Shown here in pieces: positions 9 through 63,259 of a stretch of 64,000 nt of DNA (within the stretch, counting starts at the first letter, position 1; the number at the start of each line of letters is the position of its first letter). Origin of the DNA: Acidimicrobiia bacterium (GTDB lineage: Bacteria > Actinomycetota > Acidimicrobiia > Spongiisociales > UBA11373); contig JAJCYA010000077.1 in the NCBI GenBank assembly GCA_029263095.1, forward strand, positions 2,874 to 66,873, written 5' to 3'. Under the pieces are notes generated by a model. It was not told the origin of the DNA, did not search any database, and was given only the letters and a program-made list of their open reading frames with translations. A program made the translations under genes and the position numbers.

Positions 9-686
9 TCAGCTCGTGTCGAGCAGCTTCTTCTTGGCCTTCGTGTACTCGGCTGCGGTCAACGCCCCCGACTCGCGTAGGGCGGCGAGCCTCTCCAGGT
101 CTGTGGCGAGTGACGGGGACGGGGTACTCGCTTCGCTCTGCTGCGGGGTGTGGCCTGCGGCTGAGTATTTGCCGCCGGGCTCGCTGTTGACCAGGCCACG
201 TTTGCTGAGGTCGGTGATTGCGGAGCTGACCGCGATCTTTGATAGGCCGGTGGCTTGGGCCAGCTCGGCGTAGTTGCCGCTGCCCAGATTCTTGAGGGCG
301 GCGAGTACCGCCTCAGCGTCCTCACCGGGGTCGGCGGCAGGGTTGCTGACGGGCTTTGGCTTGCTGGCGGGCTTTGGCTTCTTCCGGCTCTCCGGAGCCG
401 GGGCCGGCGGCGGCGGGGGTGGCTCCTCGGTATCGGTGGCGGTTGAAGCGGTCGGCTCCTTGGCGTCCTGTGGCGTTGCGCTGCCGGTTGCGGCCGAGTA
501 TTTGCCGCCGGATTCGCTGGTGACGAGGCCACGTTTGCTGAGGTCGGTGATTGCGGAGCTGACCGCGATCTTTGATAGGCCGGTGGCTTGGGCCAGCGCG
601 GCGTAGTTGCTGCTGCCCAGACTCTTGAGGGCGGCGAGTACCGCCTCGGCGTCATCGCTGGGGGGATTTGGGTTCTTGTCGCTCAT
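9..686 (-). CDS. Protein with two tandem winged-helix HTH-like domains (AEAVLAALKxLGSxNYAxLAQATGLSKIAVSSAITDLSKRGLV), a Pro-rich linker and a C-terminal SHOCT-like motif (LERLAALRESGALTAAEYTKAKKKLL)
   Basis: 225-aa ORF with a clean N-terminus. The two domains are encoded by a near-identical ~180-bp nucleotide duplication (150-335 and 483-668). Domain assignment is by motif recognition only. Confidence 0.6.
   Translation of the reverse strand: MSDKNPNPPSDDAEAVLAALKSLGSSNYAALAQATGLSKIAVSSAITDLSKRGLVTSESGGKYSAATGSATPQDAKEPTASTATDTEEPPPPPPAPAPESRKKPKPASKPKPVSNPAADPGEDAEAVLAALKNLGSGNYAELAQATGLSKIAVSSAITDLSKRGLVNSEPGGKYSAAGHTPQQSEASTPSPSLATDLERLAALRESGALTAAEYTKAKKKLLDTS
150..668. repeat. Intragenic direct duplication of ~180 bp, two copies 333 bp apart, nearly identical
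   Basis: Seen directly: gcggc(t/c)gagtatttgccgccgg...gaggtcggtgattgcggagctgaccgcgatctttgataggccggtggcttgggccagc occurs at ~157 and ~489. Confidence 0.8.
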
Positions 687-850: not shown

Positions 851-2347
851 CTACGGCCTGAGGCGCATCTCAAGGCCCTCGACCGTGAGTTCCATCGATT
901 CGATCGCGGTCTCGTTCAGGTTCGGGTTGAAGGTCGGACCCACCCACTTCTTCGGCCACCCCTTCTGGAAGGTCCACTCCACGGCGGGACCCTCGAGGGA
1001 CTCCATGAACAGCGAACCGCCCACTGCATCGTCCTGTGAAGCCGAGCGGATCCAGTTGTAGAACTCGGGGGAATCCGTCATGCCTCTCTTCAGGACGAGG
1101 TTGGTGAACTTCTGAATCGTCGGCGCCCGCATCGTCGTCTCGGGCTCGGCCCCAGTGCGGTAATCGATCGGAGCGGGCTCTGTTTCCAACCCGGAGACCT
1201 CGCTGAAACTCGCCGACATCCCCCGCTCCAACTCGACCCGGAACCGGAAACCGCCGCCACGTTTCGCTTTCTCGGCCCGGTCCTGCAGCCACTTCCATAT
1301 CCCGAACGCTGCCGCACCCGCACCGCCTACCAGCAGTGCGATCAGGAGTGGATTGGCTCCTCCGTCGTCGGTGAGGGGTGCGGCGACGACGCTGGTTGGG
1401 GGAGCGGTCGCCACGGTGGTTGGGGGACTGGTGGTTGGGGGACTGGTCGTCGGCGGAACAGTGGTAGTTGGTGGCGGTGGCGGAGCCAGGGGACCGACAA
1501 CGAACACCGGGAGGTCGGTGAGAGAGACGGGTGCCTGCAGAATGTCCACTCCGCCGAGGGTCGGGTCGAATGACTGCCCTCCCTCAGAGCAAAACGCCCC
1601 GAAGTTGAAATCGACGTTGCCGTCGCTTGCTTGGCGTCCCCGCAAGAAGCTGGGGAAGCCTGCGATCATGGCGTCGCCGGCCGCCCCGAATTCGCTTGCC
1701 GGGATGGCATAGAACAGTTCCTCGCCGATGGCCGCAGCAAACCCGTGAGCAGCTCTCTCCTCCCAGGTTCCGCCCATGAACTCGAGGCCCGCCGCCGAGA
1801 ATCCATCAGGCACGCCCTGTCCGGTGCGTATCACCGTGACATAGTTGGTCCCGTTGAACAGATCGCCGGGGATGCCGCTGAACGCCTCGTGCTCGGGGAC
1901 CTGCCAGGCGAGCGGGTACTCGCAGAACAGATCCGCGGAGTAGTCGACGTCGAGATCGAGCTGGATCTGAGCGATCACGTAGGGCCCGCCGGTATCGAAA
2001 TCAAGACCTTCGGGACTCGACCTGCGGATGCCGTCGGAGTTGAGCGACGAGTCGAAGGGACTCTTGGGAGCCGAGTGCCCCCTTTGCTGGAGATCGGTGG
2101 CCCACACGCCCAATCGGACGCCCCGGATGTCGATGTTCCCACCGGTGTAGCCGGGGGTGCCCGCCGGGTGGTAGATGTCGCCCAGTGAATCCGCCATCTC
2201 CAGCATCTCAGCGGCACCGCCCTGGTCCGTCAAGGCCAGGTCGACGCTGTCGAGCAGCCGGATTGGGAGGGGTGTAGTCCCGGCCCAAGCCGATCCAATA
2301 GAGATGAGGAGCGACGAGGCGACCAGTAGTACGAGCCGGCGGAGCAT
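851..2347 (-). CDS. Bitopic membrane protein: signal peptide, ~330-aa extracellular domain, Pro/Thr-rich linker, TM helix, and a cytoplasmic C-terminal phage tail tube domain (T4 gp19 / TIGR02241 / PF06841-like)
   Basis: Start trimmed to MLRRLVLLVASSLLISIGSAWA (signal-peptide-like). PT linker PPPPPTTTVPPTTSPPTTSPPTT. TM helix LLIALLVGGAGAAAFGIW. C-terminal FRFRVEL..FSEVSGLETE..LVLKRGMTDS..WPKKWVGP..ESMELTVEGLE matches the eCIS/T4 tube-protein pattern. Confidence 0.65.
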   Translation of the reverse strand: MLRRLVLLVASSLLISIGSAWAGTTPLPIRLLDSVDLALTDQGGAAEMLEMADSLGDIYHPAGTPGYTGGNIDIRGVRLGVWATDLQQRGHSAPKSPFDSSLNSDGIRRSSPEGLDFDTGGPYVIAQIQLDLDVDYSADLFCEYPLAWQVPEHEAFSGIPGDLFNGTNYVTVIRTGQGVPDGFSAAGLEFMGGTWEERAAHGFAAAIGEELFYAIPASEFGAAGDAMIAGFPSFLRGRQASDGNVDFNFGAFCSEGGQSFDPTLGGVDILQAPVSLTDLPVFVVGPLAPPPPPTTTVPPTTSPPTTSPPTTVATAPPTSVVAAPLTDDGGANPLLIALLVGGAGAAAFGIWKWLQDRAEKAKRGGGFRFRVELERGMSASFSEVSGLETEPAPIDYRTGAEPETTMRAPTIQKFTNLVLKRGMTDSPEFYNWIRSASQDDAVGGSLFMESLEGPAVEWTFQKGWPKKWVGPTFNPNLNETAIESMELTVEGLEMRLRP

Positions 2348-3664: not shown

Positions 3665-5980
3665 TCAGTCCCCGAGTGCGATCGGACAGCCATCGCCGGC
3701 GGTGAGGGTGGCGGTCATCAGCCTGAGCCCGTCGGCGGCGATAGTCACGGTGCCCGTCGAGGCGTTGAGCGTTCCAACCAGCCGGCTGCCGTCGTTCTCC
3801 AGGAGCGTGATGCGGCCTCTGCGGAAGACGGCTCCGTCGATCGTGGCGGTGATGGCGCCGCTGTCGGCGAGCATCGCCGGCAGGAACTCGAGGGCTTCGG
3901 TCATGAGCGCAAACCCACCTATGGCCAGCTCTGTGTGTTGATAGCCGAATAGCAGTCCCACCACGCCGCTCATCCCGAACAACCCGAATTCCTCGTCGTA
4001 GGAGGTGAGGGGCGGCGTGGCCGCCCCCGCCGGGTTACCACCAACCGCAGCGAGGATGGCGCCGCCGAGAGCCGCCAGCTGGAAGTAGTCGGCCAGTTGG
4101 AATAGGGCGATACCCCGATACGGCCCGCCGGGCCGCGAAGCGCATGCCGTCACCGCTGCCCCGATGTCGCCTGCGATAGGCACGTCGTCGGAGTCCACCT
4201 GGAACTGGTAGGCGCCGAACAGCACATAGGTGAGGCCGGTCCCGACGCTCGCGGTGCCGAAAGCGGCGAGGGGCTGCCCATCGGCATCGGCGTGCGCCTC
4301 GAAAGTCAGCTCCTCAAGCGAGACATCATCGCCCGGTGTGAAGGTAAAGGAGACGGACCCGTCATCGATGGTTTGCAGCGTGGGTGTCACCGAGTCCGCA
4401 GACCCGGTGATCTCGACGGTCGCCCCCCGATACGGCTCTCCGGCAAGGTCCGTCACCGCGACTAGCCACTCGGTGGCGATGCCCGCTTCGGCGTGAATAG
4501 GCGGCGCCTGAATGCACAGGGCGCTGCGGGCAACCTCGGTGGCGAACGACTCGGCCCAATCCGTCGCGGAACCCTGTGATTCCAGCAGTGCGCCGGCGTC
4601 CCTGTCGGTATTGGGATAGGCGGTCAGGGTGCTCCCGGTCTGGTGCCGCACCCCCGCGATGTACACGTCACCGGCGAATCGGTCTCCCACGCCCCACAAC
4701 GAGACCAGGCTCCCGGGCCGGAGGGGCCACAGCGGGTCGAAGGCGTGTTCGACTATCGCATCGACGTCGGCGAGGGTGATCACGTCGGCCATCGGGAGCC
4801 GGGAGGTCAAGGTCCCGGCAACCAGCTCGGTCAGCCCGGAAGAGTCGGCGCCGTTCTCATCGACGATGCGATTGAGTAGCAGCGTGCGACAGGCGGGCTG
4901 CTCGACGGCGAAGGTGTCGTCGAGCACCGGCGCCTCGAACGCGACCGGTGGGAGCGACGCCGGGGCGGCACCCACCTCGACGGACGCTCCGCACGGGGCG
5001 TCGATCGGAATCGGGCTCAGCGGTGCCGGAGGCTCGCCGTCGAGCCATCCAAACAGCATGTGTGATCCCGGTGGGATAAACAGCGAGAACTCCCCGGTTC
5101 CGGTGATGACGGCGATGCTCCGGTGGCGGCCCGACACCGACACCAGGCGGACGCCCCCCGGACCCCCGATCGACCCCGAGACGAGTGCCGGTTCGTCGCA
5201 TCGGGTCATCGGGACCAGATTCGAGAACAACACGTCGTCGCCGAGGGAGATCAGCTGCACAGCGTCGGCCTCGGCGCCGGAGATGAACAGGTCGCGCCCG
5301 GTTAGCTCGCTCAGCGCGACCGGCTCGAGACCGCCGGATACCAGCAGCCCGGATTCGGTGACTGTCAGCACGCCTGCCGGACCGCTGTCGGCGGCATCCC
5401 CGTCGTCGCTGCCGATCTCATCTCCCAATTCGGCTTCCCACCCGGTGCCGAGTCCGATGAGGATCGGTGTCGCCGGATCAATGCCCGACGAGGTGACCCG
5501 CAGACGCACCACGGCGTCGTCGGCGACGATCAGCCGGTCCGAGTCGAGCCAGAGTCCGGGACCGGCGGCCACCCGGACCGCTCCCAGGCCGATGCCCGGT
5601 CCGTCGGCGTGCAGCACGATCAGATACTCGCCCTCAGCGGTGTCGGGAGGGATCGTCAAGGCGGTCTCTCCGACACCGGCAACGACGGTGGCGACGCTTC
5701 CATCGGGTCCGATCATCTCCAGCGTCCCGGCGAACGGCACCGACACGACGGTTTCGGCTCCGGGTGCGGCGACGGGTGGCTCGACACTCAACGCGGCCAG
5801 CCCTTCACCTCGGGGCCGGGCTTGGGCGAGCGGGGCAGTCGTGTCGCCCCGGGTTGTGGACGTCGGATCGACTTCGAGGGCCGGCTCCTCTGTCGAGGTG
5901 CACGCAGCAGCAGCCAGCATCGCCAGCGCCACCAGGGCTGTGGTGGCGCGCCTTGGCGATGCGATCAGCCGGCGATGCAC
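3665..5980 (-). CDS. Large secreted lipoprotein (~771 aa), function unknown
   Basis: GTG start gives MHRRLIASPRRATTALVALAMLAAAAC (lipobox LAAAC). The upstream 230 codons of the ORF are Arg-rich wrong-frame-like and overlap the upstream gene. Low-complexity Gly/Ala/Asp composition. Confidence 0.5.
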   Translation of the reverse strand: MHRRLIASPRRATTALVALAMLAAAACTSTEEPALEVDPTSTTRGDTTAPLAQARPRGEGLAALSVEPPVAAPGAETVVSVPFAGTLEMIGPDGSVATVVAGVGETALTIPPDTAEGEYLIVLHADGPGIGLGAVRVAAGPGLWLDSDRLIVADDAVVRLRVTSSGIDPATPILIGLGTGWEAELGDEIGSDDGDAADSGPAGVLTVTESGLLVSGGLEPVALSELTGRDLFISGAEADAVQLISLGDDVLFSNLVPMTRCDEPALVSGSIGGPGGVRLVSVSGRHRSIAVITGTGEFSLFIPPGSHMLFGWLDGEPPAPLSPIPIDAPCGASVEVGAAPASLPPVAFEAPVLDDTFAVEQPACRTLLLNRIVDENGADSSGLTELVAGTLTSRLPMADVITLADVDAIVEHAFDPLWPLRPGSLVSLWGVGDRFAGDVYIAGVRHQTGSTLTAYPNTDRDAGALLESQGSATDWAESFATEVARSALCIQAPPIHAEAGIATEWLVAVTDLAGEPYRGATVEITGSADSVTPTLQTIDDGSVSFTFTPGDDVSLEELTFEAHADADGQPLAAFGTASVGTGLTYVLFGAYQFQVDSDDVPIAGDIGAAVTACASRPGGPYRGIALFQLADYFQLAALGGAILAAVGGNPAGAATPPLTSYDEEFGLFGMSGVVGLLFGYQHTELAIGGFALMTEALEFLPAMLADSGAITATIDGAVFRRGRITLLENDGSRLVGTLNASTGTVTIAADGLRLMTATLTAGDGCPIALGD

Positions 5981-6630
5981 GTCAGGTCCGCCCGCACCGT
6001 CCCGTCCACCGCTCCATCGAAGGAGCCTTCCAGATCGATCCTGGCGACGTCGGCGTCCCCCACGCTGTCGATGAAGGCGATCGTGATTTGAGCGACTCCG
6101 GCTGCGTCCTGGAACGTCACACCGATCCCGGTACCGGTCTGGTATTGAGCATCGAAGGGGGTCTCGAAGTCGCCCTGGTCGCGCCAGCCGCGGACGTGGG
6201 CCACCACCCGCACCGTCGGTTCGGTCGGGTCGTCCAGATTCTGATAGCCGAAGGCGATGTTGAGGAACTCCCCATCGGCATCGTTGCGGACGTCGCACAG
6301 CGGGAACGCTTCGAATGCCCCGGCGAGGACACCCCCGGCGGTGATGGTGCCCCCAACCGTCCAGTCGTCGGCCGGCACCGCCGTCGTCGTGGTTGAGGCG
6401 GTCGCCACTGTGATGTCGAGTTCGATCGGTCCCGGTTCGTTCGTACCGGTTGGCGGCGCTGCCGAGAACGGGGAGGTAGCGCTCGGGTCGGCTTCGGAGG
6501 CTCCTCCGCAGGCGGCGGCCACGAGCGCCAAAACGATCGGCGCGATCAGCCGGAGCGCCTCGGCGCGGACACCGGTCGGGGACGGATCGGATCCGTGATC
6601 GTGATGTCGGCTCCAGGTCTTTGGGAGCAT
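5965..6630 (-). CDS. Lipoprotein, unknown function
   Basis: LIAPIVLALVAAACGG lipobox. Its stop overlaps the GTG start of the downstream lipoprotein by 16 nt. Confidence 0.5.
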   Translation of the reverse strand: MLPKTWSRHHDHGSDPSPTGVRAEALRLIAPIVLALVAAACGGASEADPSATSPFSAAPPTGTNEPGPIELDITVATASTTTTAVPADDWTVGGTITAGGVLAGAFEAFPLCDVRNDADGEFLNIAFGYQNLDDPTEPTVRVVAHVRGWRDQGDFETPFDAQYQTGTGIGVTFQDAAGVAQITIAFIDSVGDADVARIDLEGSFDGAVDGTVRADLTCIAG

Positions 6631-7014
6631 CGGTTCCCCCTACGACGGTGTCCAAAAGCCTACCCATCAAGGGTCGTACGCACCGTGGGAGGGTTCCGAC
6701 GCGCCCACTGGGCGCGCCGCGGCGGTGGGCGGGGCTTAGATCCGGTTGAAGATCGTGCCGATCGTAAGAAGTAGGCCACCACCTGCTGCCAACCAGAACG
6801 AAACGTCTACGTCCACGTCGAGCCCAAGCCAGTCGGAGTAGAAGACGATCCCGAGCAACAGTGCTCCTACCGCCGTGGTGAAGGTCCTATTGGTAGGTGG
6901 ACTCAGCCGCAATTTGCCTCCCTGCTTTTGGTTTGGCAACGCTACCGTCCTCGGACTCCGCCGGTGTCGGTGGCCGCAGGGTATGGTTCGGAATCCATGG
7001 TGAATGGGGGCTTG

Positions 7015-7716
7015 ATGCGTTCGAAAACGGTCCTGTCGCGGCTTCTTCTGATCGCATTGGTGGCGGCCGGCTGCTCGGACGACACCGGCCCGACCACGAC
7101 GGCTGCGGCCGCAACCACGCAGACGCCCGCACCGACCCAAGCACCCACCGCCGCTACGCAGGCGCCGCCGAACACGCCTGCCCCTGCGTTGTGTCCCGCG
7201 GCTGGAATGCCCATACCCGGCGCGCAGGAGGGGCTGCCAGACACCGTGGGCGGAATGCGCAACGACATCGTTGGGGCGGCCTCGGAGTGCGACCTCGAAC
7301 GATTCGCCGAGTTGGCACGCGAGGGCCCCGGTGAGTTCGTCTTCTCCGGCGGTGAGATCCTGTTCTTTGTTGGACCGCCGGACGAGGCCGCCAGATTCCT
7401 GAGCGGGCTCGCAGATGACGGTACCGATGTCCTGGCCGACGCCGTTGGGCTTCTCGATCTGCCCTTCGGCTTCATCGAGGACCCCGAACCGTGGGCGCTG
7501 CTCGACGACCCTGCCCTGGCACCCCTGTACGTGTGGCCGGCGGCCGCGGCCTACTCGTCGTGGACGCAGGTGCCGGATCCCGCCCGCGAAGCGATCCGCG
7601 CCTTGCTCGGGGGCGCGGCGCTGCAGTTCTTTGCTGAACAGGACATGTACCTCGGTCCCCGCCTCGGTATCACCGAAGCGGGGGACTGGGTCTTCCAACA
7701 CTTCGGCGATCTGTGA
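7015..7716 (+). CDS. Lipoprotein with Thr/Ala/Pro-rich linker, unknown function
   Basis: MRSKTVLSRLLLIALVAAGCSDD lipobox followed by TTTAAAATTQTPAPTQAPTAATQAPP. Confidence 0.55.
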   Translation: MRSKTVLSRLLLIALVAAGCSDDTGPTTTAAAATTQTPAPTQAPTAATQAPPNTPAPALCPAAGMPIPGAQEGLPDTVGGMRNDIVGAASECDLERFAELAREGPGEFVFSGGEILFFVGPPDEAARFLSGLADDGTDVLADAVGLLDLPFGFIEDPEPWALLDDPALAPLYVWPAAAAYSSWTQVPDPAREAIRALLGGAALQFFAEQDMYLGPRLGITEAGDWVFQHFGDL

Positions 7717-7809
7717 TCGCTGTGATGGCCTCGGTCGAATGATTGGACTCAGGGGATAGCAGCGGTACCTGGGTATCGTCGCGGATTCACAGTGGTAGAG
7801 GGGTCTCCC

Positions 7810-8496
7810 ATGCGTCCAAGGTTCGTACTGCAAATCCTGTTGGTCGTGGCTCTGGTGGCTGCTGCCTGTTCAGATGACACCGCTTCGACAACGGCCGCGA
7901 CAACGGCGCCGGCCACCACGAGCGCTTCTGCCACGACCCAAGCACCAGCAGCAACGACGACCACCACCCAAGCTCCGTTGGTCACGACCGCTCCCGCCAC
8001 GACCGCGGCGGGAACGACCGGACTCCAGATCGTTCAGGTCGGTTTCGACACATCCTTCCAGGAAGGCTGGGTGCTGTTGCAGAACACCGGCAGTACGCCG
8101 GTATCACTTGGCGGCCACTTCTTGTGCCAGCGACCTTCGTACTTCGCACTTCCTGATGTCACGATCGCAGCGGGCGACATCTTCTGGGTCGGCGTCACGG
8201 GACCTGTGGACTCCCAGCCGACTGTCGGCGCCGGCGGGGCCATCGGATCGCTCGATGCCAGCGATGGCGAAATGGGGTTGTACTCGTCGGGTTCGTTCGG
8301 AGATCCGACCTCGATGGTGTCGTACGTCGAATGGGGATCCTCGGGGCACGGCCGGTCGTCGGTAGCTGTCGATGCCGGAATCTGGGGTGCGGGTGACTTT
8401 GTGCCTGTGCTCGGGAGTCTGACGGGAGCGATCAACGTGATCGACCCGGCCGCCGGAGCCGGGACCGCCAATTGGGAAGAGCTCGAAGCGCCGTAG
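7810..8496 (+). CDS. Lipoprotein with Thr/Ala-rich linker and C-terminal lamin-tail-domain (LTD)-like beta domain
   Basis: MRPRFVLQILLVVALVAAACSDD lipobox. LQIVQVGF..EGWVLLQNTGSTPVSLGGHFL..YFALPDVTIAAGDIFWV resembles the LTD pattern. Confidence 0.5.
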   Translation: MRPRFVLQILLVVALVAAACSDDTASTTAATTAPATTSASATTQAPAATTTTTQAPLVTTAPATTAAGTTGLQIVQVGFDTSFQEGWVLLQNTGSTPVSLGGHFLCQRPSYFALPDVTIAAGDIFWVGVTGPVDSQPTVGAGGAIGSLDASDGEMGLYSSGSFGDPTSMVSYVEWGSSGHGRSSVAVDAGIWGAGDFVPVLGSLTGAINVIDPAAGAGTANWEELEAP

Positions 8497-8826: not shown

Positions 8827-9165
8827 ATGAGTATTGAGAGTTGGACTGACGAAGCCATCCTTGCCCAGGTAGGTGAGCGGATTCGGACCGAGCGACTCAA
8901 CCGGAACCTCACCGCCCAGGAAGTCGCCGACTACGCCGGGGTTTCCCTCGCCACTCTCTCCAAGGTCGAGCGAGGTCACAACCACTCGCTCAAGACACTC
9001 CTGAGGATCCTGCGCGCCTTGGGTCTTCTGAACCGTGTTGAGGCACTGCTACCCGACCAGGGACCGAGCCCCATTCAGCTGGCCAGGTTGCGCGGCAAGC
9101 AGCGCCAACGCGCCACCGGAAGCCGGGGACGAGATCGCCCCGCCGACGGTGAACCGCCGTGGTAG
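8827..9165 (+). CDS. hipB: HTH XRE-family antitoxin HipB
   Basis: XRE HTH (LTAQEVADYAGVSLATLSKVERG), placed immediately upstream of and overlapping hipA. Confidence 0.75.
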   Translation: MSIESWTDEAILAQVGERIRTERLNRNLTAQEVADYAGVSLATLSKVERGHNHSLKTLLRILRALGLLNRVEALLPDQGPSPIQLARLRGKQRQRATGSRGRDRPADGEPPW

Positions 9166-10442
9166 GACGCATCGATGTCGCCGAGGTCCACCTGTGGGGG
9201 CGACAGATCGGTGCCGTGGCTTGGAACGACGACCGCTCATTGGCGACGTTTGAGTATTCCCCCGACTTCCTGCGTACCGGGATCGAGCTTACGCCGCTGA
9301 CCATGCCGCTTGGCCCGGGGCTCTTTCGGTTCCCCGAGCTGGCCTTCAGGACCTATCGGGGCCTGCCGGGCATGTTGGCGGACTCCCTACCGGACAACTT
9401 TGGGAACAGCCTGATCGACGCCTGGCTGGCGAGGGAGGGACGCGATCGGTCGTCCTTCTCTCCGGTGGAACGCCTCTGCTACATCGGTACCCGCGGCATG
9501 GGAGCGCTCGAGTATCACCCGGCCACTCGGGGCCGCGATGCCTCGGCCACGGTGCAAGTAGATGAGCTGGCCGACCTCGCCAAGACGATGCTGGCCTCCC
9601 GCCGAGACCTCCAGGTCGGCCTCGACGATGAAGGCCTGGCCGAGCTGCTCCGGGTGGGGACCTCCGCAGGGGGAGCCCGTGCCAAGGCGATCGTGGCGTG
9701 GAACCCGACCACGGGGGAGGTTCGATCGGGTCAGGTCTCGGCTCCCGAAGGATTCCAGTACTGGATCGTCAAGTTTGACGGCGTGGGCAGTTCCGATCAT
9801 GGACTCGCCGACCCCGAGGGCTACGGCCGCATCGAGTACGCCTATCACCTCATGGCCGTTGACGCCGGCATCGACATGACTGCGTCGAGGCTCTTCGTCG
9901 ACAAGGCGGGCCGAGCCCACTTCATGACTCGCCGCTTCGATCGAACCGACGACGGCGGCAAGCTTCACATTCAGACCCTCGCCGCCATGGGGCACCTCGA
10001 CTACAACGAACCCGGGGCCCACAGCTACGAAGAGGCACTCGCCCTGACCCTGCGGATCTGCGGTGCGGCCGACGTTGATCGGCTATTCAGGCGGATGGTC
10101 TTCAACGTCGTGAGCCGCAACCAGGATGACCACACCAAGAACGTCACGTTCGTCATGGGTCGATCAGGACGGTGGCGTCTGTCGCCCGCCTACGACGTCA
10201 CATGGGCATTTAACCCGCAGGGCCAGTGGACCAACCGCCACCAGATGACGATCGCGGGCAAACGCGACGACCTCACCCGCTCCGACCTGGTGGCGGTCGC
10301 CGATGAGTTTGGGATTCGGTCTCCCGAGCAAGTCATCGGCCAGGTCGTTTCGGTGCTCGGCGATTGGAAGCACTACGCGTCGGAAGCCGGAGTCGACGAT
10401 GCCTATCGCGAGCTGATCGCATCCACCCACCGGCTCATCTAG
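9159..10442 (+). CDS. hipA: Type II toxin HipA (Ser/Thr kinase)
   Basis: HipA N-terminal coupling domain plus kinase motifs GGARAK and SRNQDDHTKN. GTG start overlaps the hipB stop (GTGGTAG). Confidence 0.85.
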   Translation: MVGRIDVAEVHLWGRQIGAVAWNDDRSLATFEYSPDFLRTGIELTPLTMPLGPGLFRFPELAFRTYRGLPGMLADSLPDNFGNSLIDAWLAREGRDRSSFSPVERLCYIGTRGMGALEYHPATRGRDASATVQVDELADLAKTMLASRRDLQVGLDDEGLAELLRVGTSAGGARAKAIVAWNPTTGEVRSGQVSAPEGFQYWIVKFDGVGSSDHGLADPEGYGRIEYAYHLMAVDAGIDMTASRLFVDKAGRAHFMTRRFDRTDDGGKLHIQTLAAMGHLDYNEPGAHSYEEALALTLRICGAADVDRLFRRMVFNVVSRNQDDHTKNVTFVMGRSGRWRLSPAYDVTWAFNPQGQWTNRHQMTIAGKRDDLTRSDLVAVADEFGIRSPEQVIGQVVSVLGDWKHYASEAGVDDAYRELIASTHRLI

Positions 10443-10517
10443 GCATTCAGCTGGTTTGGTTGAATCGGTGAACGCCACCGGTGGGGCCGTGTCATGGTGG
10501 ATCCTTAGCTTGATGGC

Positions 10518-10877
10518 GTGGCAGCAAATCGGCGATGGCGGGACTACCGGACCCGGGGCGGAAGACGCCCGGTCAAGGAGTTTTTGGATGGCCTGTCTGA
10601 TTCGGATGCTGCGGCCGTCGTTGCCGGCATGAGAGATGTGCAGGTCAACGGCAATCGCGTGGCTCGTCACCTCGAGGGGGAGATCTACGAGCTGCGGGTT
10701 GCTGGCGACAGGCAGGCCTTCAGAGTGCTCTACGCCACCGAGGGTAAGGGGAATCAGATCCTTCTCGCGCTGGAGGCCTTCTCCAAGAAGACCCAGAAGA
10801 CGCCCAATCAGGCCATCCGGCTTGCCAAGCGGAGATTGACTGATTGGCGCTCCAGAGCGAGGAGCAATCGACCTTGA
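10518..10877 (+). CDS. RelE/ParE-superfamily toxin of the Gp49/HigB-like family
   Basis: 119 aa with VKEFLDGL..YELRV..FRVLYA..ILLALEAFSKKTQKTP, a toxin-first arrangement with a downstream XRE antitoxin. Confidence 0.6.
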   Translation: MAANRRWRDYRTRGGRRPVKEFLDGLSDSDAAAVVAGMRDVQVNGNRVARHLEGEIYELRVAGDRQAFRVLYATEGKGNQILLALEAFSKKTQKTPNQAIRLAKRRLTDWRSRARSNRP

Positions 10878-21882: not shown

Positions 21883-22542
21883 GTGACCGGGAACAGGACC
21901 GGGGACGAGGCCAAGGGTGGAGACGGGTTCGGCAACAGGTCCGAGACCAGGGCAGAGGCAACGGCGGCTCGGATTGTCGGCGCTGCCCGCGGTCTGTTTC
22001 TTGCCAAGAGCTACGCCGAGGTGACGACCGACCTCATCGCACGAGCCGCTGATGTGACCAAGGGTGGCTTGTATCACCACTTTCCGAGCAAGGAATCGTT
22101 GTACCTCTCGATGATGCTGGAGGAGCTGGACCGCAAGCGGCTCCTCTTCGAGAAGGCCGTCGCCATGGCGGGCGACTCCCGTGAACGGCTGGCCCGGCTG
22201 ACCAGAGACTTCCTCGACCTCCCGACCGACGAGCGCGAGTTGATGCGCCTCGTGCGGCGTGACATCAACATCTTCGATGGCGTCGAGCGCGACCAGTTGG
22301 TGCGCGCCTATCAGCGGGCCCTTCCCGAGCAGGTCGAAGCGATCCTGCGCGACGGGATCCGAGATGGCGAGCTGAGCGTCGCCGACCCCCGACTGCTCTC
22401 CTGGTCGTTTGTGGCATTGGTCGAGATCGTGATCGGGGACTACGCGCATCGGGCCCTGGGTGATACCGGAGCTCGTCTCGATCATGTGTTGGAGCTGTTC
22501 TTCGGCGGAGCCGCCGCCCGCAGGGTCGGGGCGGCTGTATGA
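21883..22542 (+). CDS. TetR-family transcriptional regulator, first gene of the bcr-like operon
   Basis: ARGLFLAKSYAEVTTDLIARAADVTKGGLYHHFPSKESL HTH. Its stop overlaps the next gene's start (ATGA). Confidence 0.7.
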   Translation: MTGNRTGDEAKGGDGFGNRSETRAEATAARIVGAARGLFLAKSYAEVTTDLIARAADVTKGGLYHHFPSKESLYLSMMLEELDRKRLLFEKAVAMAGDSRERLARLTRDFLDLPTDERELMRLVRRDINIFDGVERDQLVRAYQRALPEQVEAILRDGIRDGELSVADPRLLSWSFVALVEIVIGDYAHRALGDTGARLDHVLELFFGGAAARRVGAAV

Positions 22543-23714
22543 CAACGATGACGACTCGGGTGTTTCCGGAGTGGCGCGACAAGTCCCTCGACGACTCCTT
22601 GCTGGAGTGCCGCGACCTGGTGGAGTCGGCAGAGTTCGAGACGGTTGCTAGATGGCGCGAGGGTGGGGGTTTGGTCGCCGGCCATTTTCAGGTGTACTTC
22701 CCCGAGGAGATTGTGGAGGCCGCAGGGATGCTCGCCTTCAAGATGCGGGGAGCACCGCTCGAACCCGATCAAGCGGACTCTCATTTCGGCTCCTACCTGT
22801 GCTCGATCCTCAAGACGTCTCTAGAGCTGTCGCTGAGCGGGACGGCCGAGTTGGACGTGTTCTTCTCGCACCCGATTTGCGATGCCGCCCGCAACCTGGC
22901 GGCGATCTGGGGCCGCAACTTCGACTACCCGAGCCAGATTGTGTACCTACCGCAGAACCCCAACTCATCGGGGAGCGTCGAGTACCTGCGTCACGAGTAC
23001 GACCGGGTGCGTCGGGTGGTGGAGGAGGTGTCGGGTCGTGAGATCACCGACGACGATCTGCGCAGATCGATCGAGGTGTTCAACGAGAATCGCCGGCTTC
23101 TTCGTGAGCTGTACGACATCAAGTCGGAGACCCCTTGGCTGATCACCGCCGAGGATGCATACGCGCTGGTGGCGCTGGCCGGGATGATGCCGCGCCGAGA
23201 GCACAACGAGCTGCTGGCGACACTGCTCCCACAGATCAGGGAGCGCACCGCCAAGAAGGAGGACCGAATTCGGTTGGTGTTCGAGGGGGGCTTCTGCGAG
23301 CAGCCGCCGTTCGACCTGATCCGGATGCTGGGTCGGACCAGCTACGTCGTCGACGATGACTTCCTGATCGGGTTGCGTTGGATCACATCGGACGTGCCCA
23401 CCGAAGGAGACCCACTCACCAACCTGGCCGAGGCGTATATCGAGCAGTCGAGCTACAGCCCGGTGCAGCACGATCTGCGCAAGCCGAAGGAGAAGATGCT
23501 GCTGGAGCGGATTCGAGAGTCGGGGGCCGAGGCCGCCGTTCTCGCCGCCGCCAAGATGTGCGAGCCGGGGCTCGAAGAGCAGGTGGCCTACACCCACGCG
23601 CTCGACGAGGCTGGCATTTCCTACTTCGTGTCGGAATTCGAGGAGAACATGAGCTCGTTCGACCAGCTGGAGATGCAGCTCGAGACCTTTGTAGAGAACC
23701 TGCTCTTTGCATGA
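22539..23714 (+). CDS. bcrC: Benzoyl-CoA reductase subunit C / BzdN / HgdB-like (2-hydroxyacyl-CoA dehydratase family, PF06050)
   Basis: 391-aa HGD-D family member, first of a C-B-ATPase-ATPase cluster in the same order as bcrCBAD. Assignment to BCR rather than dehydratase rests on context. Confidence 0.65.
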   Translation: MTTMTTRVFPEWRDKSLDDSLLECRDLVESAEFETVARWREGGGLVAGHFQVYFPEEIVEAAGMLAFKMRGAPLEPDQADSHFGSYLCSILKTSLELSLSGTAELDVFFSHPICDAARNLAAIWGRNFDYPSQIVYLPQNPNSSGSVEYLRHEYDRVRRVVEEVSGREITDDDLRRSIEVFNENRRLLRELYDIKSETPWLITAEDAYALVALAGMMPRREHNELLATLLPQIRERTAKKEDRIRLVFEGGFCEQPPFDLIRMLGRTSYVVDDDFLIGLRWITSDVPTEGDPLTNLAEAYIEQSSYSPVQHDLRKPKEKMLLERIRESGAEAAVLAAAKMCEPGLEEQVAYTHALDEAGISYFVSEFEENMSSFDQLEMQLETFVENLLFA

Positions 23715-25021
23715 TGGAGGAAGGCATGAACAGTGAGGCTGCGGTGGATCTGGTGGGCAGGGGCAACCGGGAGGGTGCCGCGCTGTTTCGCGACTGGTTC
23801 GACGAGCTGAACACGACTGCCACCAGCGGTGGGCAGGCCGCCTACGTGTTCGTCATGGGGAGCATCAACGAGATCCTGAAGTCGTTCGATCTGCCGGTCG
23901 TGTTCCCTGAGATCAACTCTTTGCAGACTGCGGTGCGGCGCGTCGCCCACGAGTACCTGGAGGAAGCCGAGGACTACGGCTATTCGCCCGATATCTGCGG
24001 CTACGTCAAGGCCGACGTCGCCACCCAGTTACGCGGTGGCGAACACCCGATGGGTCAGATTCCACCCCCGACGCTCTCGGTGCTCACCAATGCCTGCAAC
24101 ACCTACATCAAGTGGGCCGAGATCTGGGAGCGGATGTACGACTGCCCCACATTTACTCTCGACGTGCCGGGTACTCGCCAGTCGGGTCGGCAGACCTGGC
24201 GGGGCGACTCCGATTTCGAGGCAGATCGCAAGTACGTCGAGGTACAGCTGCGTGAGCTGATCACCGTCTGCGAGGCGGTGACTGGCCGCAAGTTCGACAT
24301 CGACAAGTTTCGCGAAGTCCTCACCCACGCCAACACGATGAGCCGATCCTGGAATCGGATACTCGAACTCAATCAGTCCAAGCCGGCCCTGTTCAGTGCT
24401 CTCACCGACGGCACGATCTTCCTTGGGGTAGCCAACGGGTTCAGGGGAACGGAGGCCGGTGCTCGCTACTTCGAGCGGCTGGTCGAGGAGATGGAGTACA
24501 AGGCAGCCAACGGGATAGGGACCACCATCGAGGAGGAGTACCGCCTCCTGTTCGTGGGAGTGCCCTGCTACCCGATCTTTCGCCGGTTCAATGAGCTGTT
24601 TACCGACTGGGGAGGCACGTTCGTCAACTCCACCTACCTGTGGTTCGCCTCGGGCGGGACCAACCGCGGTTTCGAGTACGACCTCAAAGACCCGATTGCC
24701 AGCCTGGCCGAGGGGGTATTGGTGAGCGTGCGGGATGCCATGGACGCCATGTTCCATCAGGACGTCGTGCTGGCAGACATGGTCGACGACTTTGGGGCGG
24801 ACGGGGTGATCTACCACCCGATCAAGAGCTGTCGGACCGTCTCCACCGGGCTGGCAGACGGGCGCCGCTATCTGACCAAGGAGCGCGACATCCCCACCCT
24901 GTTCATCGAGTCGGACATGATGGATCGCAGGGTGGTCTCGGAAGCACAGATGAAGAACCGCATCGACGCCTTCTTCGAAGGCTTGGCGTCGCGTCGCCAG
25001 ATGGCTGGAACGAAAGGATGA
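23711..25021 (+). CDS. bcrB: Benzoyl-CoA reductase subunit B / BzdO / HgdA-like (PF06050)
   Basis: 437 aa after trimming the 111 Arg-rich leading codons. Start [10 protein letters not shown] overlaps the upstream stop (ATGA). Confidence 0.65.
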
Positions 25022-25031
25022 GGTGCCACCC

Positions 25032-25853
25032 ATGGCTTATGCAGCCGGAGTAGATGTCGGCTCCACCCAGACGAAGGCCGTGATCATCGGCGAGGACCGC
25101 CGTATCGCGGGGCGTTCACTGCTGGACACGGGGGCCAACGTCATAAAGGCGGCGGAATCCGCCTATATGGCCGCGCTCGAACAAGGGGGGATCGAGGAGA
25201 GAGAGGTCGAGTACGTCGTCGGGACCGGATACGGACGATATCGGGTCACCTTCGGAAACACCCAGGTCACCGAGATCAGCTGCCACGGCCGGGGAGCAGT
25301 CCATCTGTTTCCCAACACCAGGACCGTTGTCGACATGGGGGGACAGGACACCAAGGCGATCAGCGTCAGTCCCCAGGGTGAGATCACCGACTTCTGTATG
25401 AATGACAAGTGTGCCGCCGGAACCGGCCGCTTTCTAGGAGCCGCAGCAGCGGCTCTCGACATTCCCCTCGACGATCTGGGATCGATCTCGCTGAAGTCGG
25501 ACAGACCCATCAAGATCAGCACCACTTGTACGGTCTTCGCCGAATCCGAGGTGCTCGCCTGGATCGGCAAGGGCAAGAAGATCGAGGACATCCTGTCTGG
25601 GGTGCACAAGTCGATTGCCTCCAGATCGGCCGCTCTGATGCGGAGGGTGGGGATCGACGATGAAGTGACCTTTACCGGCGGCGTTTCGCGCAACGAAGGC
25701 ATGGTGAAGGCACTCGAGGACAGGCTCGGTACTCGACTCAACATCAGCGACGATTGCCACTACATGGGGGCACTCGGCGCCGCCCTGTTTGCACTCGATC
25801 ACGTTGTTGCCGGCCGGGCTCCGGCCGCCGAGGGAGCGGGGGTCTCGGCGTGA
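25032..25853 (+). CDS. BadF/BadG/BcrA/BcrD/HgdC-type ATPase (activase) subunit
   Basis: [12 protein letters not shown] (actin-fold phosphate-1) and [11 protein letters not shown] (cluster-binding Cys motif). Confidence 0.75.
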
Positions 25854-26662
25854 TGGTCACAGCAGGGCTCGATGTCGGATCGACGTATACGAAGGTCGTG
25901 ATCCAGGCCGGTGACGGTTCGATCCTCGGCAATGCTGCGGCTCCCACGGGTTTTCGACTGCGGGAGCAGGCCAGGGACACCTACGACAGGGCACTCGCCG
26001 AGGCAGGAATCTCCGAATCCGATGTCGACTACGTGGTGGCCACCGGGATCGGTCGTCACCAGGTCGACTTCAAGGATCTCCACGTGACCGACCTCACCGC
26101 CAGCGCCAGGGGAGCGCACTTCCTGTTCCCGGAGACCCGGACCATTCTCGATATCGGCGGTCAGACGATGAAGGCCAGCCGGATCGACGGTGTTGCCAAG
26201 GTTCTCTCATTCCGCCTCAACGACAAGTGTGCCGCCGGGACCGGCGCCTTCCTGGAGAAGACCGCTCGCTACATGGGGTACACGACCAGCGAGATCGGTC
26301 CGCTGATGTCGACTTCGAAGGATCCGGTGCCGATATCGGGGGTTTGTGCGGTGTTTGCCGAGTCCGAGGTGATCAACCACCTATCTCTGGGGACTGCACC
26401 CGCCGACATCATGCAGGGTGCGATCGAATCGCTGACCAATCGGGCGGTTCAACTGATGAAGCGCGTCAGGGCCGAACCCGAACACACGCTTGTCGGGGGC
26501 ATCCTCAGGTTCGAGACCATGGGTCGCTCCGTGAGTGAGACTCTGGGGGCAGATGTCAATGTCCCTGATCCCGAAATGGTTCAGTTCGTCTCGGCCCTGG
26601 GGTGCGCCATCCTCGCCCGACTCCGGTTGGAGAAGCTGGCGGCGACGGGAGCAGCGGTGTGA
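25853..26662 (+). CDS. Second BadF/BadG/BcrA/BcrD/HgdC-type ATPase subunit
   Basis: AGLDVGSTYTKV and [11 protein letters not shown] motifs. TGATG overlap with the upstream gene. Two ATPase genes is the BCR signature; dehydratases have one. Confidence 0.75.
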   Translation: MVTAGLDVGSTYTKVVIQAGDGSILGNAAAPTGFRLREQARDTYDRALAEAGISESDVDYVVATGIGRHQVDFKDLHVTDLTASARGAHFLFPETRTILDIGGQTMKASRIDGVAKVLSFRLNDKCAAGTGAFLEKTARYMGYTTSEIGPLMSTSKDPVPISGVCAVFAESEVINHLSLGTAPADIMQGAIESLTNRAVQLMKRVRAEPEHTLVGGILRFETMGRSVSETLGADVNVPDPEMVQFVSALGCAILARLRLEKLAATGAAV

Positions 26663-46516: not shown

Positions 46517-46840
46517 CTATCCGCGACTGCTGCAGGTGACGCAGCGCGAGGTAGCGGGGAGTGCCTCTTGTCGGGGTTCGCCTATGCGTTCTCCGCAGTC
46601 GTCACAGGTTCCGTATGACCCGTCGGCGAGCTTGTCCAGGGCCCTGTCGATGTCGGCAATCGATCCAGCGATGGATCGGGCGGTGGCGGTGGTGGACAGT
46701 CGTTCCACGGCCTCCGAGGTTCCATCGCCGATTCGTTTGCCAAACGCCACCGTCGATCCCGGCGGCGGTGGTTCGGTCAGCCGCTCGAGTTCGGCGGCCA
46801 GTTCGGCGCGCCGGACTTGGAGGCGCTCGGCGATCGACAT
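46517..46840 (-). CDS. DksA/TraR-family C4-type zinc-finger protein
   Basis: C-terminal GSYGTCDDCGERIGEPRQEALPATSRCVTCSS (CxxC-n17-CxxC). Start trimmed to MSIAERL. Confidence 0.6.
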   Translation of the reverse strand: MSIAERLQVRRAELAAELERLTEPPPPGSTVAFGKRIGDGTSEAVERLSTTATARSIAGSIADIDRALDKLADGSYGTCDDCGERIGEPRQEALPATSRCVTCSSRG

Positions 46841-46939
46841 CTGGTGAGCGTACGCATCATCTGGGATCACCACAGCTGTTGCGACCGAACGGCTCCGCGG
46901 CGTGAGATAACGCGGGGTCTTGGTACCGTCGGACGCGAC

Positions 46940-62620: not shown

Positions 62621-63259
62621 CTATCCCGTCATCGTCAACGGCCCGGGGATCGTCGTTCCGTCGGTAAACGTTACGCCGGAGAGCACCGCTTCGAATCCGT
62701 CGGCGTCGGCTTGGACGATCTCGATGTCGCCGCTCGCCAGGAAGTCAGCTCCCAGGTCACCGATCGGACCGGTCCCATCAGGGTCGAAGTGCACGCAGAT
62801 ACCACTACCGCCTGGAGAGCAATCGATCGTGGACATGCCCAGTTCTCCGGCCCAAGCCGTCCCGTACCCGGTCGTGTAGGCCTCGATCGAGAGGAAGAAG
62901 CCGTCGGTGTCTGGGTTGTTGTGCACGTGGAAGAACGGATCGGTTGAACCCGACGCCGGCGGGATGAAGAAGACCCCCTCCAGCGCGGCCCAGTCGATGG
63001 TCACTTCGCCGTCGGCGGTGATCTCGAACACTGCCATCGGGGCCGCAACGGTGGTCGCAGGTGCCGCCGTTGTCGTTGGCGCAATCGTGGTAGCGGCCGC
63101 TGCGGTGGTCGTGGTTTCGGCTGGGGCGGTCGATGTGGTCGCCACAGGGGCAGTGGTCGCCGGAGTGGTGCCGGAGCCTGCCGAGTCGTCGTCGCCGCAT
63201 GCGACGGCAACGAGTCCTATTGCCAGTGCGAACGCGATCAACTGCTTGAACTTGCCCAT
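62621..63259 (-). CDS. Lipoprotein with Thr/Ala-rich linker, unknown function
   Basis: MGKFKQLIAFALAIGLVAVACGDDD lipobox, followed by a TTAPVATTSTAPAETTTTAAAATT linker. Confidence 0.5.
   Translation of the reverse strand: MGKFKQLIAFALAIGLVAVACGDDDSAGSGTTPATTAPVATTSTAPAETTTTAAAATTIAPTTTAAPATTVAAPMAVFEITADGEVTIDWAALEGVFFIPPASGSTDPFFHVHNNPDTDGFFLSIEAYTTGYGTAWAGELGMSTIDCSPGGSGICVHFDPDGTGPIGDLGADFLASGDIEIVQADADGFEAVLSGVTFTDGTTIPGPLTMTG

What the first reader, a model, noticed from the sequence alone, without database searches (positions are those of the whole stretch)
851..2347. Phage tail-tube (gp19/TIGR02241-like) domain fused as the cytoplasmic tail of a secreted-domain membrane protein, with no other contractile-injection genes
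The C-terminal ~130 aa (FRFRVEL..FSEVSGLETE..LVLKRGMTDS..WPKKWVGP..ELTVEGLE) follow the conserved pattern of T4 gp19 and eCIS inner-tube proteins. The same polypeptide starts with a signal peptide, has a ~330-aa extracellular domain, a PT linker and one TM helix. Tube proteins normally polymerise inside a sheath. A single membrane-tethered tube domain with no sheath, baseplate or spike genes within 60 kb suggests either a membrane anchor or nucleator for a contractile-injection particle encoded elsewhere, or a tube fold repurposed for another role such as a receptor.
Basis: partly seen in the sequence, partly recalled or inferred. Interest (0 to 1): 0.75.

Follow-up and report, generated by a model that had tools for sequence, protein, structure and literature searches.

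The report
Membrane-tethered injection-tube domain protein
A rare surface protein of an uncultured Acidimicrobiia bacterium carries on its cytoplasmic end a complete copy of the building block of phage-tail-like injection tubes, with no other injection-machine genes nearby; I found no description of this layout, and its role is still unknown.

Summary
Window 2347..851 (- strand) encodes a 498-aa protein. It has a cleavable-type signal peptide, a ~263-aa extracellular beta-sandwich, a ~44-aa Pro/Thr stalk and one TM helix. About 14 residues after the helix comes a complete CIS inner-tube domain (PF06841 E=1e-30; TIGR02241 above its cutoff). The best solved relatives are the AlgoCIS and Anabaena tube proteins.

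The fusion is real. Seven other proteins from independent assemblies share the whole layout. No sheath, baseplate or spike gene lies in the 64-kb window or in six other contigs carrying family members.

Three results are new:
- The ectodomain family is tiny: 11 hits among 1.84 billion representatives.
- Two sister proteins keep the same signal peptide, ectodomain, stalk and TM but carry an unrelated Cys-rich tail.
- Most fused tube domains score well below free CIS tubes on the Pfam model (39-83 versus 106-144 bits).

This leans towards a tube fold co-opted as a swappable cytoplasmic module of a stalked surface protein. A dock for a CIS encoded elsewhere is not excluded, because the rest of the genome could not be searched. 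Host: Acidimicrobiia. Verdict: new variant of a known kind, function unresolved.

The parts
851..2347 (-). Whole gene (498 codons plus stop): type I single-pass membrane protein with a C-terminal CIS tube domain.
   Evidence: ORF and translation. It is identical to database protein P0001, and 7 full-length homologues exist. GC is 64.6% and GC3 78.5%, like the other window genes.
2282..2347 (-). Signal peptide, residues 1-22 (MLRRLVLLVASSLLISIGSAWA|G).
   Evidence: A hydrophobic peak is present in seven of the eight members; P0003 has its N-terminus cut in the gene call. A small-x-small motif (AWA, AFA, AVA, AAA, ARA, ALA) precedes the mature end. Cleavage itself is inferred, not shown.
1493..2281 (-). 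Extracellular globular domain, residues 23-285: a beta-sandwich with distant DOMON/CBM9-type similarity and two invariant Cys (C142, C253).
1361..1492 (-). Pro/Thr-rich stalk, residues 286-329.
   Evidence: Read directly from the sequence. Low pLDDT. Present in all members with variable length.
1292..1360 (-). Transmembrane helix, residues ~330-352 (GANPLLIALLVGGAGAAAFGIWK), with conserved Gly/Ala positions.
   Evidence: Hydropathy peak in all members. Helix 333-360 in the AF2 model. It is the most conserved segment: 64% mean identity, 8 of 23 positions invariant.
1250..1291 (-). Basic juxtamembrane segment, residues 353-366 (WLQDRAEKAKRGGG), linking the TM to the first tube strand.
   Evidence: 3-5 Lys/Arg lie within 15 residues after the TM in all members, which fits the positive-inside rule. 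Poorly conserved: 22% identity.
869..1249 (-). Complete CIS inner-tube (gp19/Cis1-type) domain, residues 367-493, predicted cytoplasmic.
   Evidence: PF06841 E=1.2e-30, profile 3-134/134. TIGR02241 85.8 bits, above the 62.4 cutoff. PDB sequence hits: 7adz_1a 1.3e-18, 9r9h_B 3.1e-17, 7b5h_AN 5.6e-16. Top Foldseek hits are CIS tube proteins, followed by Hcp. 42% identical to a free tube protein of a canonical CIS locus.

Best explanation
This is a stand-alone, lineage-restricted (Acidimicrobiia) type I surface protein. A contractile-injection-system inner-tube domain has been co-opted as its cytoplasmic module.

Shown:
- The domain order is signal peptide, conserved beta-sandwich ectodomain, Pro/Thr stalk, conserved TM helix, ~14-residue basic linker, complete tube domain.
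- The fusion is conserved in 8 proteins.
- No CIS gene lies near any of them.
- A sister group uses the same ectodomain-stalk-TM chassis with an unrelated Cys-rich tail.

Inferred mechanism:
- The protein is exported by Sec and cleaved after AWA.
- The stalk carries the ectodomain through the wall, where it binds a ligand. DOMON/CBM9-type sandwiches bind sugars or haem.
- Under the membrane, the tube domains and the Gly/Ala-rich TM helices self-associate, probably into tube-like rings.
- Those rings act as a platform that holds or recruits a cytoplasmic partner.
- The tube fold therefore serves as an oligomerisation or docking module, not as part of a firing tube.
For: Architecture and tube identity:
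- Shown: - The fusion is found in 8 independent sequences with 92-100% coverage.
- Ectodomain and tube identities co-vary between members (r=0.79), as expected for one ancestral fusion.
- Both halves have host-like GC and GC3.

No CIS genes nearby:
- None in the window.
- None in the six other contigs: L001, L002, L003, L090, L091 and a JGI contig. Together with the window they form three different synteny groups.
- By contrast, the closest free tube protein (P0009) sits in a full CIS cluster.

Swappable tail:
- P0014 and P0016 match the ectodomain profile at 3e-26 and 1.5e-22.
- They align from the signal peptide through the TM with hhalign probability 99.9%, E=3e-37.
- They end in a Cys-rich tail with no Pfam family.

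Drift of the tube domain:
- PF06841 scores of the other six members scored are 39-83 bits, against 106-144 bits for four free CIS tubes.
- Mean identity within the family is 39% for the tube domain and 51% for the ectodomain.
Against: - The window's own tube domain is still canonical: 106.5 bits, the full profile, and 42% identity to a working-type Cis1-like tube protein. Stacking on a real tube is therefore plausible.
- Only 850 bases are available downstream of the gene in the window, five of the other six contigs are under 10 kb (L001 is 11.7 kb), and no complete genome could be searched. A distant CIS locus is not excluded.
- Ring formation, topology, ligand and partner are all inferred.
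- No cytoplasmic partner has been identified, and no neighbouring gene is conserved across all contexts.
Confidence: 0.5

Rival explanations
1. It is a membrane dock, or a distal-end tether or nucleator, for a cytoplasmic CIS encoded elsewhere in the genome. The tethered tube domains would form a ring, or join one, that stacks on a Cis1 tube end. This would hold the particle at the membrane and perhaps couple an extracellular signal to assembly or firing.
For: - The tube domain is complete and clears the curated cutoffs of PF06841 and TIGR02241.
- The best solved relatives are main tube proteins: 7adz_1a, 7b5h_AN and S. coelicolor Cis1a 9gts_1a.
- It is 42% identical to a tube protein of a canonical CIS locus.
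- The link to the TM is only ~14 residues, which would put a ring flush against the membrane.
- There is precedent that intracellular CIS need dedicated membrane proteins: CisA in Streptomyces (PMC12237407) and Cis13/Cis12 in Anabaena (PMC8894136).
Against: - Known CIS membrane adaptors are encoded in or next to the CIS cluster and act through the baseplate or fibres, not the tube. Here, none of 7 contexts has a CIS gene.
- Sister proteins replace the tube domain with a Cys-rich tail.
- Most fused tube domains have drifted far from the canonical profile.
- From general knowledge of CIS architecture, an N-terminal tether on each subunit would clash with a surrounding sheath anywhere except at a tube end. 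This is inference.
Confidence: 0.25
2. It is an anti-phage or anti-CIS decoy. Membrane-tethered tube subunits would co-assemble with the tube proteins of an infecting contractile-tailed phage and poison tail assembly, or serve as bait for a sensor.
For: - The gene is rare, patchy and sits in variable contexts, as is common for defence genes.
- Tail tube proteins are known defence triggers. The DSR2-SPR tube complex 8ygc appears among the weak fold matches (rank 26). The biology of DSR2 is from my own knowledge.
- A HipBA toxin-antitoxin pair lies 6.5 kb away.
Against: - No PADLOC hit for the protein or its neighbours.
- A conserved, disulfide-type extracellular domain on a stalk is unexplained by a cytoplasmic decoy role.
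- The best relatives are CIS tubes, not phage tubes.
- The composition is host-like.
Confidence: 0.08
3. It is an artefact or relic: two genes joined by an assembly or frame error, or a decaying remnant of a lost CIS locus with no function.
For: The tube domain evolves faster than the ectodomain.
Against: - Eight independent assemblies give the same uninterrupted architecture.
- Every member examined keeps the whole PF06841 profile above the cutoff.
- Identities of the two halves co-vary.
- GC3 is high in frame through both halves.
- No neighbouring CIS remnants were found.
Confidence: 0.03

Closest known systems
CIS/eCIS inner tube proteins (Cis1 / Afp1 / Pvc1 / Alg1; Pfam PF06841 Phage_T4_gp19, TIGR02241)
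   Same: The C-terminal 127 residues are a full-length member of this domain family by sequence and by predicted fold. They are 42% identical to a tube protein in a canonical CIS locus.
   Different: - Canonical tube proteins are free ~140-165-aa soluble proteins encoded beside sheath and baseplate genes.
- Here the domain is the cytoplasmic tail of a 498-aa exported membrane protein, with no CIS genes around.
- In most family members it scores much lower on the family model.
CisA (SCO4242), the membrane protein needed for Streptomyces coelicolor CIS function and firing (PMC12237407)
   Same: It is a bitopic actinobacterial membrane protein with a folded extracytoplasmic domain and a link to the CIS world, which makes it a possible functional analogue as a membrane adaptor.
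   Different: - CisA has the opposite topology: a disordered cytoplasmic N-terminus, a TM, and a periplasmic substrate-binding-like C-terminal domain.
- The paper describes no tube domain in CisA, and reports it as conserved with the CIS gene clusters.
- Sequence relatedness to CisA was not tested.
Thylakoid-anchored CIS of Anabaena: TM-bearing tail-fibre-like Cis13 and the extended baseplate protein Cis12 (PMC8894136)
   Same: A core CIS-type protein is covalently equipped with a TM helix to fix the machine to a membrane.
   Different: There the anchoring goes through fibre and baseplate components encoded in the cluster. Here the tethered part is a tube domain, and no cluster is present.
Extended ('evolved') Hcp proteins of type VI secretion (Hcp fused to toxin domains; own knowledge, cf. 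PMC8262886 listed)
   Same: A tube-fold subunit is fused to another domain in one polypeptide.
   Different: Those extensions are C-terminal toxins delivered with the tube, with no signal peptide or TM. Here the extension is N-terminal, exported by a signal peptide and separated from the tube domain by a membrane span.
DOMON / CBM9 / ethylbenzene-dehydrogenase-gamma type beta-sandwiches (extracellular haem- or sugar-binding modules)
   Different: - No Pfam match and no PDB sequence match.
- Foldseek found nothing significant.
- Only ~150 of 268 residues align, at 7-12% identity.
- Ligand residues were not identified.

Membership tests
PF06841 / TIGR02241 CIS inner-tube domain family | Sequence match above the curated family cutoffs over the whole domain | tested here: met
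   PF06841: 106.5 bits (cutoff 28.2), profile positions 3-134 of 134. TIGR02241: 85.8 bits (cutoff 62.4). The 6 other members scored also pass PF06841, at 39-83 bits.
PF06841 / TIGR02241 CIS inner-tube domain family | Tube-protein fold | tested here: met
   The top 14 Foldseek hits of the full-length model are CIS tube or tube-adaptor chains (7adz_1a, 7b5h_AN, Pvc1, Afp1, Cis1a), followed by Hcp, at probability 0.99-1.0. The model of this part is only moderately confident, and the hairpin at 388-412 is disordered.
Functional CIS inner tube (Cis1-type component of a contractile injection system) | Encoded in a cluster with sheath, baseplate (gp25, gp6-like), spike and cap genes | tested here: not met
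   No such gene in the 64-kb window (Pfam; tblastn with 15 CIS proteins). None on the 6 other contigs either.
Functional CIS inner tube (Cis1-type component of a contractile injection system) | Free soluble subunit of ~140-165 aa that can be enclosed by a sheath | tested here: not met
   The domain is fused behind a signal peptide, ectodomain and TM helix in all 8 members.
Functional CIS inner tube (Cis1-type component of a contractile injection system) | Assembles into stacked hexameric rings | not testable with these tools
   Only single-chain prediction was available. This needs multimer modelling or biochemistry.
NCBIfam CIS1_fam / CIS5_fam equivalogs | Score above the equivalog cutoff | tested here: not met
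   CIS5_fam: 62.7 bits against a cutoff of 260. CIS1_fam: 15.1 bits against a cutoff of 220.
CIS membrane adaptors (CisA type) | Bitopic protein with N-in/C-out topology and a periplasmic substrate-binding-like C-terminal domain, conserved with the CIS cluster | tested here: not met
   The predicted topology here is the reverse: N-out after cleavage, C-in. There is no CIS cluster nearby. The CisA features are taken from PMC12237407. No direct sequence comparison with CisA was made.
DOMON / CBM9-like superfamily (ectodomain) | Significant sequence or profile match to a member family | tested here: not met
   No Pfam family at E<=0.1. The profile search against PDB sequences gave only E=0.15, to an unrelated DUF35 protein.
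DOMON / CBM9-like superfamily (ectodomain) | Fold similarity to members | tested here: inconclusive
DOMON / CBM9-like superfamily (ectodomain) | Haem-ligating or sugar-binding residues | not tested
   Invariant Tyr59-His60, Cys142 and Cys253 are noted. They were not mapped onto a ligand site.

The most novel reading that the evidence does not exclude
The tethered tube domain is the membrane receptor or gate of a cytoplasmic contractile injection system in Acidimicrobiia. A ring of tube domains, held under the membrane by six TM helices and wired to an extracellular ligand-binding domain, would dock or nucleate the tube. This would be anchoring through the tube rather than the baseplate, and it could couple an outside signal directly to assembly or firing.
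Probability: 0.2. Interest if true: 0.85.

Novelty: new variant of a known kind. Interest (0 to 1): 0.55.

Why it matters
Tube proteins of phage tails, eCIS and T6SS are known as free subunits that polymerise inside a sheath. All CIS membrane anchors I found described (the T6SS membrane complex, Anabaena Cis12/Cis13, Streptomyces CisA) act through the baseplate, fibres or accessory proteins.

A tube domain covalently tied to the membrane, and to an extracellular domain, could mean one of two things:
- It is the first example of the tube fold being recruited for a job outside injection machines, as a ring-forming cytoplasmic module of a surface receptor.
- It is a new way of anchoring or regulating an intracellular CIS in a poorly studied, uncultured actinobacterial class.

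Either outcome is informative about how phage-tail parts are re-used. The family is small and well defined, which makes it easy to test.

Tried and rejected
Searches that found nothing or failed:
- Pattern scans for family members in genome contigs, metagenome contigs and viral contigs found none. Named genomes carrying the gene, and genome-wide CIS co-occurrence, could therefore not be examined.
- Exact look-ups of the window's own proteins (fusion, P0001, P0018) failed, so the source record was not identified.
- The tube-domain-only word search returned just 4 free tube proteins, so no survey of other tube fusions was possible.
- The afdb50 fold library was unavailable.
- Foldseek of the ectodomain against PDB gave nothing significant.
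- A PDB sequence search with the ectodomain profile, and with the Cys-rich tail, gave nothing.
- Literature searches for a TM-tethered tube protein, PF06841 plus transmembrane, or Acidimicrobiia CIS found nothing relevant.
- No tRNA or Rfam family is present in the window, and no convincing promoter or terminator lies near the gene.

Ideas tested and rejected:
- Conserved operon partners. Neighbours are shared only within closely related contigs (LiaFSR-like/flavodoxin group; Macro-domain group), and none is shared with the window.
- A defence-system link. There are no PADLOC hits apart from generic wHTH matches.
- Homology of the window ORF 44564..45850 to the fusion's ectodomain. This was not supported (hhalign E=0.045). 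Its Cys-rich tail resembles the P0014/P0016 tail only weakly (E=9e-4 and 3.6e-3, probability 22% and 9%).
- The deep-search hits P0013 (6407 aa) and P0015 (1982 aa). These are repeat-driven matches to a 43-residue stretch, not relatives.

Full report
**1. What is in the sequence**

On the - strand an ORF runs from 2476 (TTG) to 851. The ATG at 2347 gives a 498-aa product. That product is identical to a database protein, P0001, from an 88-kb NCBI contig, and its N-terminus aligns with those of seven homologues. The upstream gene, an SRPBCC/polyketide-cyclase-like protein, stops at 2385, leaving 37 bases before the ATG.

The C-terminal domain was checked as follows:
- PF06841 (Phage_T4_gp19) matches residues 367-493 at E=1.2e-30 and 106.5 bits, covering profile positions 3-134 of 134.
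- TIGR02241 scores 85.8 bits, above its 62.4 cutoff.
- The narrow NCBIfam equivalogs CIS5_fam and CIS1_fam are far below their cutoffs.
- Among solved structures, the best sequence matches are the tube proteins of the Algoriphagus eCIS (7adz_1a, 1.3e-18) and the Anabaena thylakoid CIS (7b5h_AN, 5.6e-16), plus 9r9h_B (3.1e-17), a chain labelled only "Phage tail protein". These are ahead of the adaptor layers, Pvc1, Afp1 and Afp5.
- A full-length AF2 model (pLDDT 66) gives Foldseek hits exclusively to CIS tube chains, including S. coelicolor Cis1a, followed by Hcp.

The tube identity is therefore solid.

**2. Topology**

There are two hydrophobic segments: residues 1-22, ending AWA|G, and residues ~330-352. 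Both are present in seven of the eight family members; P0003 has its N-terminus cut in the gene call and shows only the TM segment. The first segment is followed by a small-x-small motif in all eight. The second is preceded by acidic residues and followed by 3-5 Lys/Arg.

The AF2 model makes residues 333-360 a single long helix. Only about 14 residues separate the membrane from the first tube strand, FRFRVEL.

By the positive-inside rule and signal-peptidase motifs (established knowledge; not tested experimentally), the mature protein is type I. That places the ectodomain outside on a 44-residue Pro/Thr stalk and the tube domain inside, directly under the membrane.

Two Cys are invariant in the ectodomain (C142, C253). 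In the sister protein P0014, the motifs that hold them (FCEYP and NFGAFCS) read YSEFM and NFGSYAS in my reading, so both appear to be lost together. That would fit an extracytoplasmic disulfide; it is an inference.

**3. The fusion is real and conserved, but very rare**

- A search of 5.8 billion clusters found 8 proteins with the whole architecture, at 38-49% identity and 92-100% coverage, all carrying PF06841.
- A full HMMER pass of an ectodomain profile over 1.84 billion representatives found only 11 hits.
- Identities of the ectodomain and the tube domain co-vary across members (r=0.79), as expected for a single ancestral fusion evolving as one unit.
- GC (64.6%) and in-frame GC3 (78.5%; tube part 85.6%) match the other genes of the window.

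An assembly or frame artefact is therefore excluded.

**4. The ectodomain**

It has no Pfam family and no sequence relative in the PDB. An AF2 model built from the 8-sequence alignment is reasonably confident (pLDDT 80.5, pTM 0.85) and mostly beta.

To my knowledge these all belong to the DOMON/CBM9-type haem- or sugar-binding sandwiches. However, only ~150 of 268 residues align, and Foldseek finds nothing significant. I treat the assignment as tentative.

**5. Surroundings**

Window genes near the fusion:
- Upstream: an SRPBCC protein, a methyltransferase on the other strand, and two overlapping lipoprotein genes.
- Downstream: a protein with two winged-helix domains and a SHOCT domain.

Pfam scans of the 29 largest or nearest other ORFs gave only metabolic and housekeeping families. 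These include HipA, glycosyltransferase, dehydrogenases, hydroxyacyl-CoA dehydratase and its activators, aconitase-type enzymes, thiolase, a molybdopterin oxidoreductase, serpin, a GAF histidine kinase and SufD. Fumarase and SufB were identified by eye only; the SufB ORF was confirmed by its 93% match to Acidimicrobiia SufB loci.

The closest free tube protein is P0009 (41% identity). It sits in a textbook CIS cluster, L004, with Pvc16_N, two sheath genes, two tube genes, CIS_tube, Phage_base_V, PAAR and gp25. tblastn with 15 proteins of that cluster against the window and seven other loci (L001-L003, and the sister-protein contigs L086-L089) hit only the tube domains of the fusion genes.

Six other contigs carry family members, and none has a CIS gene. 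Their neighbours fall into two synteny groups that share nothing with the window. The first group has a LiaFSR-like PspC kinase and regulator, a flavodoxin and a large AAA_16 ATPase. The second has a Macro-domain protein.

There is no PADLOC hit. The host is an Acidimicrobiia bacterium: its SufB is 93% identical to that of an Acidimicrobiia MAG, and the next-best loci are mostly Acidimicrobiia or Acidimicrobiaceae MAGs.

**6. Two observations that bear on function**

First, the deep search found two sister proteins, P0014 (492 aa) and P0016 (443 aa). They align with the family from the signal peptide through the ectodomain, stalk and TM helix (hhalign probability 99.9%, E=3e-37). They end in an ~80-residue Cys-rich tail with no known family instead of a tube domain. 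Their contexts also lack CIS genes. The ectodomain-stalk-TM unit is thus a chassis on which the cytoplasmic module has been exchanged.

Second, the fused tube domains are less constrained than working tubes:
- PF06841 scores are 106.5 bits for the window copy but 83, 69, 58, 51, 45 and 39 bits for the others. Four free CIS tube proteins score 106-144 bits.
- Within the family, mean identity is 39% for the tube domain, 51% for the ectodomain and 64% for the TM helix.

The unusually conserved, Gly/Ala-rich TM helix suggests helix-helix packing, meaning oligomerisation in the membrane. This is an inference.

**7. Interpretation**

The most economical reading (about 0.5) is a stand-alone stalked surface protein whose tube domain has been co-opted as a cytoplasmic self-assembling or partner-docking module. 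The main rival (about 0.25) is a membrane dock for a CIS encoded elsewhere. In its favour:
- The window's copy is still fully canonical.
- The tether is short.
- There is precedent in CisA (PMC12237407) and in Cis13/Cis12 (PMC8894136).

Against the rival:
- Those known adaptors are cluster-encoded and act through the baseplate or fibres.
- None of 7 contexts here shows a cluster.

A decoy or defence role (about 0.08) and an artefact or relic (about 0.03) are unlikely. None of these could be settled, because no complete genome carrying the gene was reachable.

**8. Comparison with known systems, and novelty**

At domain level this is a member of the PF06841/TIGR02241 tube family. As a protein it fails the features that define a working CIS tube subunit, namely a free subunit encoded in a cluster. 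It differs in topology and domain content from every CIS membrane adaptor I could find described. Literature searches found no report of a membrane-tethered tube protein.

I rate it a new variant of a known kind, with moderate-to-good interest. A CIS specialist would find the architecture surprising. However, the family is tiny and the function is unresolved.

Noticed in passing
window 44564..45850 (-) (ORF open to 46087): A second stalked type I membrane protein (P0018, 428 aa). It has a signal peptide, an unassigned ectodomain, a Thr-rich stalk, a TM helix and a strongly conserved ~90-aa Cys-rich cytoplasmic tail. The same tail occurs on a different ectodomain in P0021 and P0022. It weakly resembles the tail of P0014/P0016, the sister group of the tube fusions (hhalign E=9e-4 and 3.6e-3), so homology is not established. 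This hints at a set of Acidimicrobiia surface proteins with swappable outer and inner modules.
   Followed up: partly
window 9..686 (-): The gene directly downstream of the fusion, on the same strand after a 164-base gap, encodes two near-identical winged-helix (MarR/TrmB-like) domains separated by a Pro/Lys-rich linker, plus a C-terminal SHOCT domain. It is not conserved next to other family members.
   Followed up: partly
window 3665..6630 (-): Two overlapping genes (overlap 5965-5980) encode lipobox-type secreted proteins of 221 and 771 aa with no family assignment. The listed 1001-aa ORF is an over-extension. Further Thr/Ala-rich lipoprotein-like genes lie at 6928..7716, 7792..8496, 62621..63259 and 63373..end.
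   Followed up: partly
L001:1-2346; JGI contig Cp40d7DT 2-2953; L090:14-499: In three family contexts a large AAA_16-type ATPase with helical repeats lies upstream of the fusion on the same strand. In two of these a conserved ~233-aa Cys-containing protein of unknown family lies in between; the same small protein is also upstream in L091. None of them is present in the window, and there is no PADLOC hit.
   Followed up: partly
L087:8001-11404 (also L088, L089): The gene for the Cys-tail sister protein P0016, together with an FG-GAP repeat protein, sits inside the conserved ribosomal-protein cluster, between rpsM and map-adk-secY.
   Followed up: no
window 8827..10877: A HipB-like HTH gene (by eye) followed by a HipA-family kinase (Pfam HipA_C E=9e-47), then a small ORF that looks RelE/Gp49-like by eye. 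This is a toxin-antitoxin patch about 6.5 kb from the fusion gene.
   Followed up: partly
window 46817..48319 (+): A bacterial serpin with an N-terminal lipoprotein-type signal sequence (Pfam Serpin E=3e-91).
   Followed up: no
window 22539..26662 (+): A 2-hydroxyacyl-CoA dehydratase D-component gene, followed about 1.3 kb downstream by two BcrAD/BadFG-type activator ATPase genes, next to CoA-transferase, enoyl-CoA hydratase and thiolase genes.
   Followed up: no
proteins P0013 (6407 aa) and P0015 (1982 aa): These giant repeat proteins (Calx-beta and fn3-like repeats) reached E=3e-43 and 6.5e-24 against the ectodomain profile. They did so only through 11-28 repeated matches to one 43-residue stretch (profile 144-187; the motif '..SLEF...W.E..'). 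This is a repeat-summed local similarity, not homology of the domain.
   Followed up: yes
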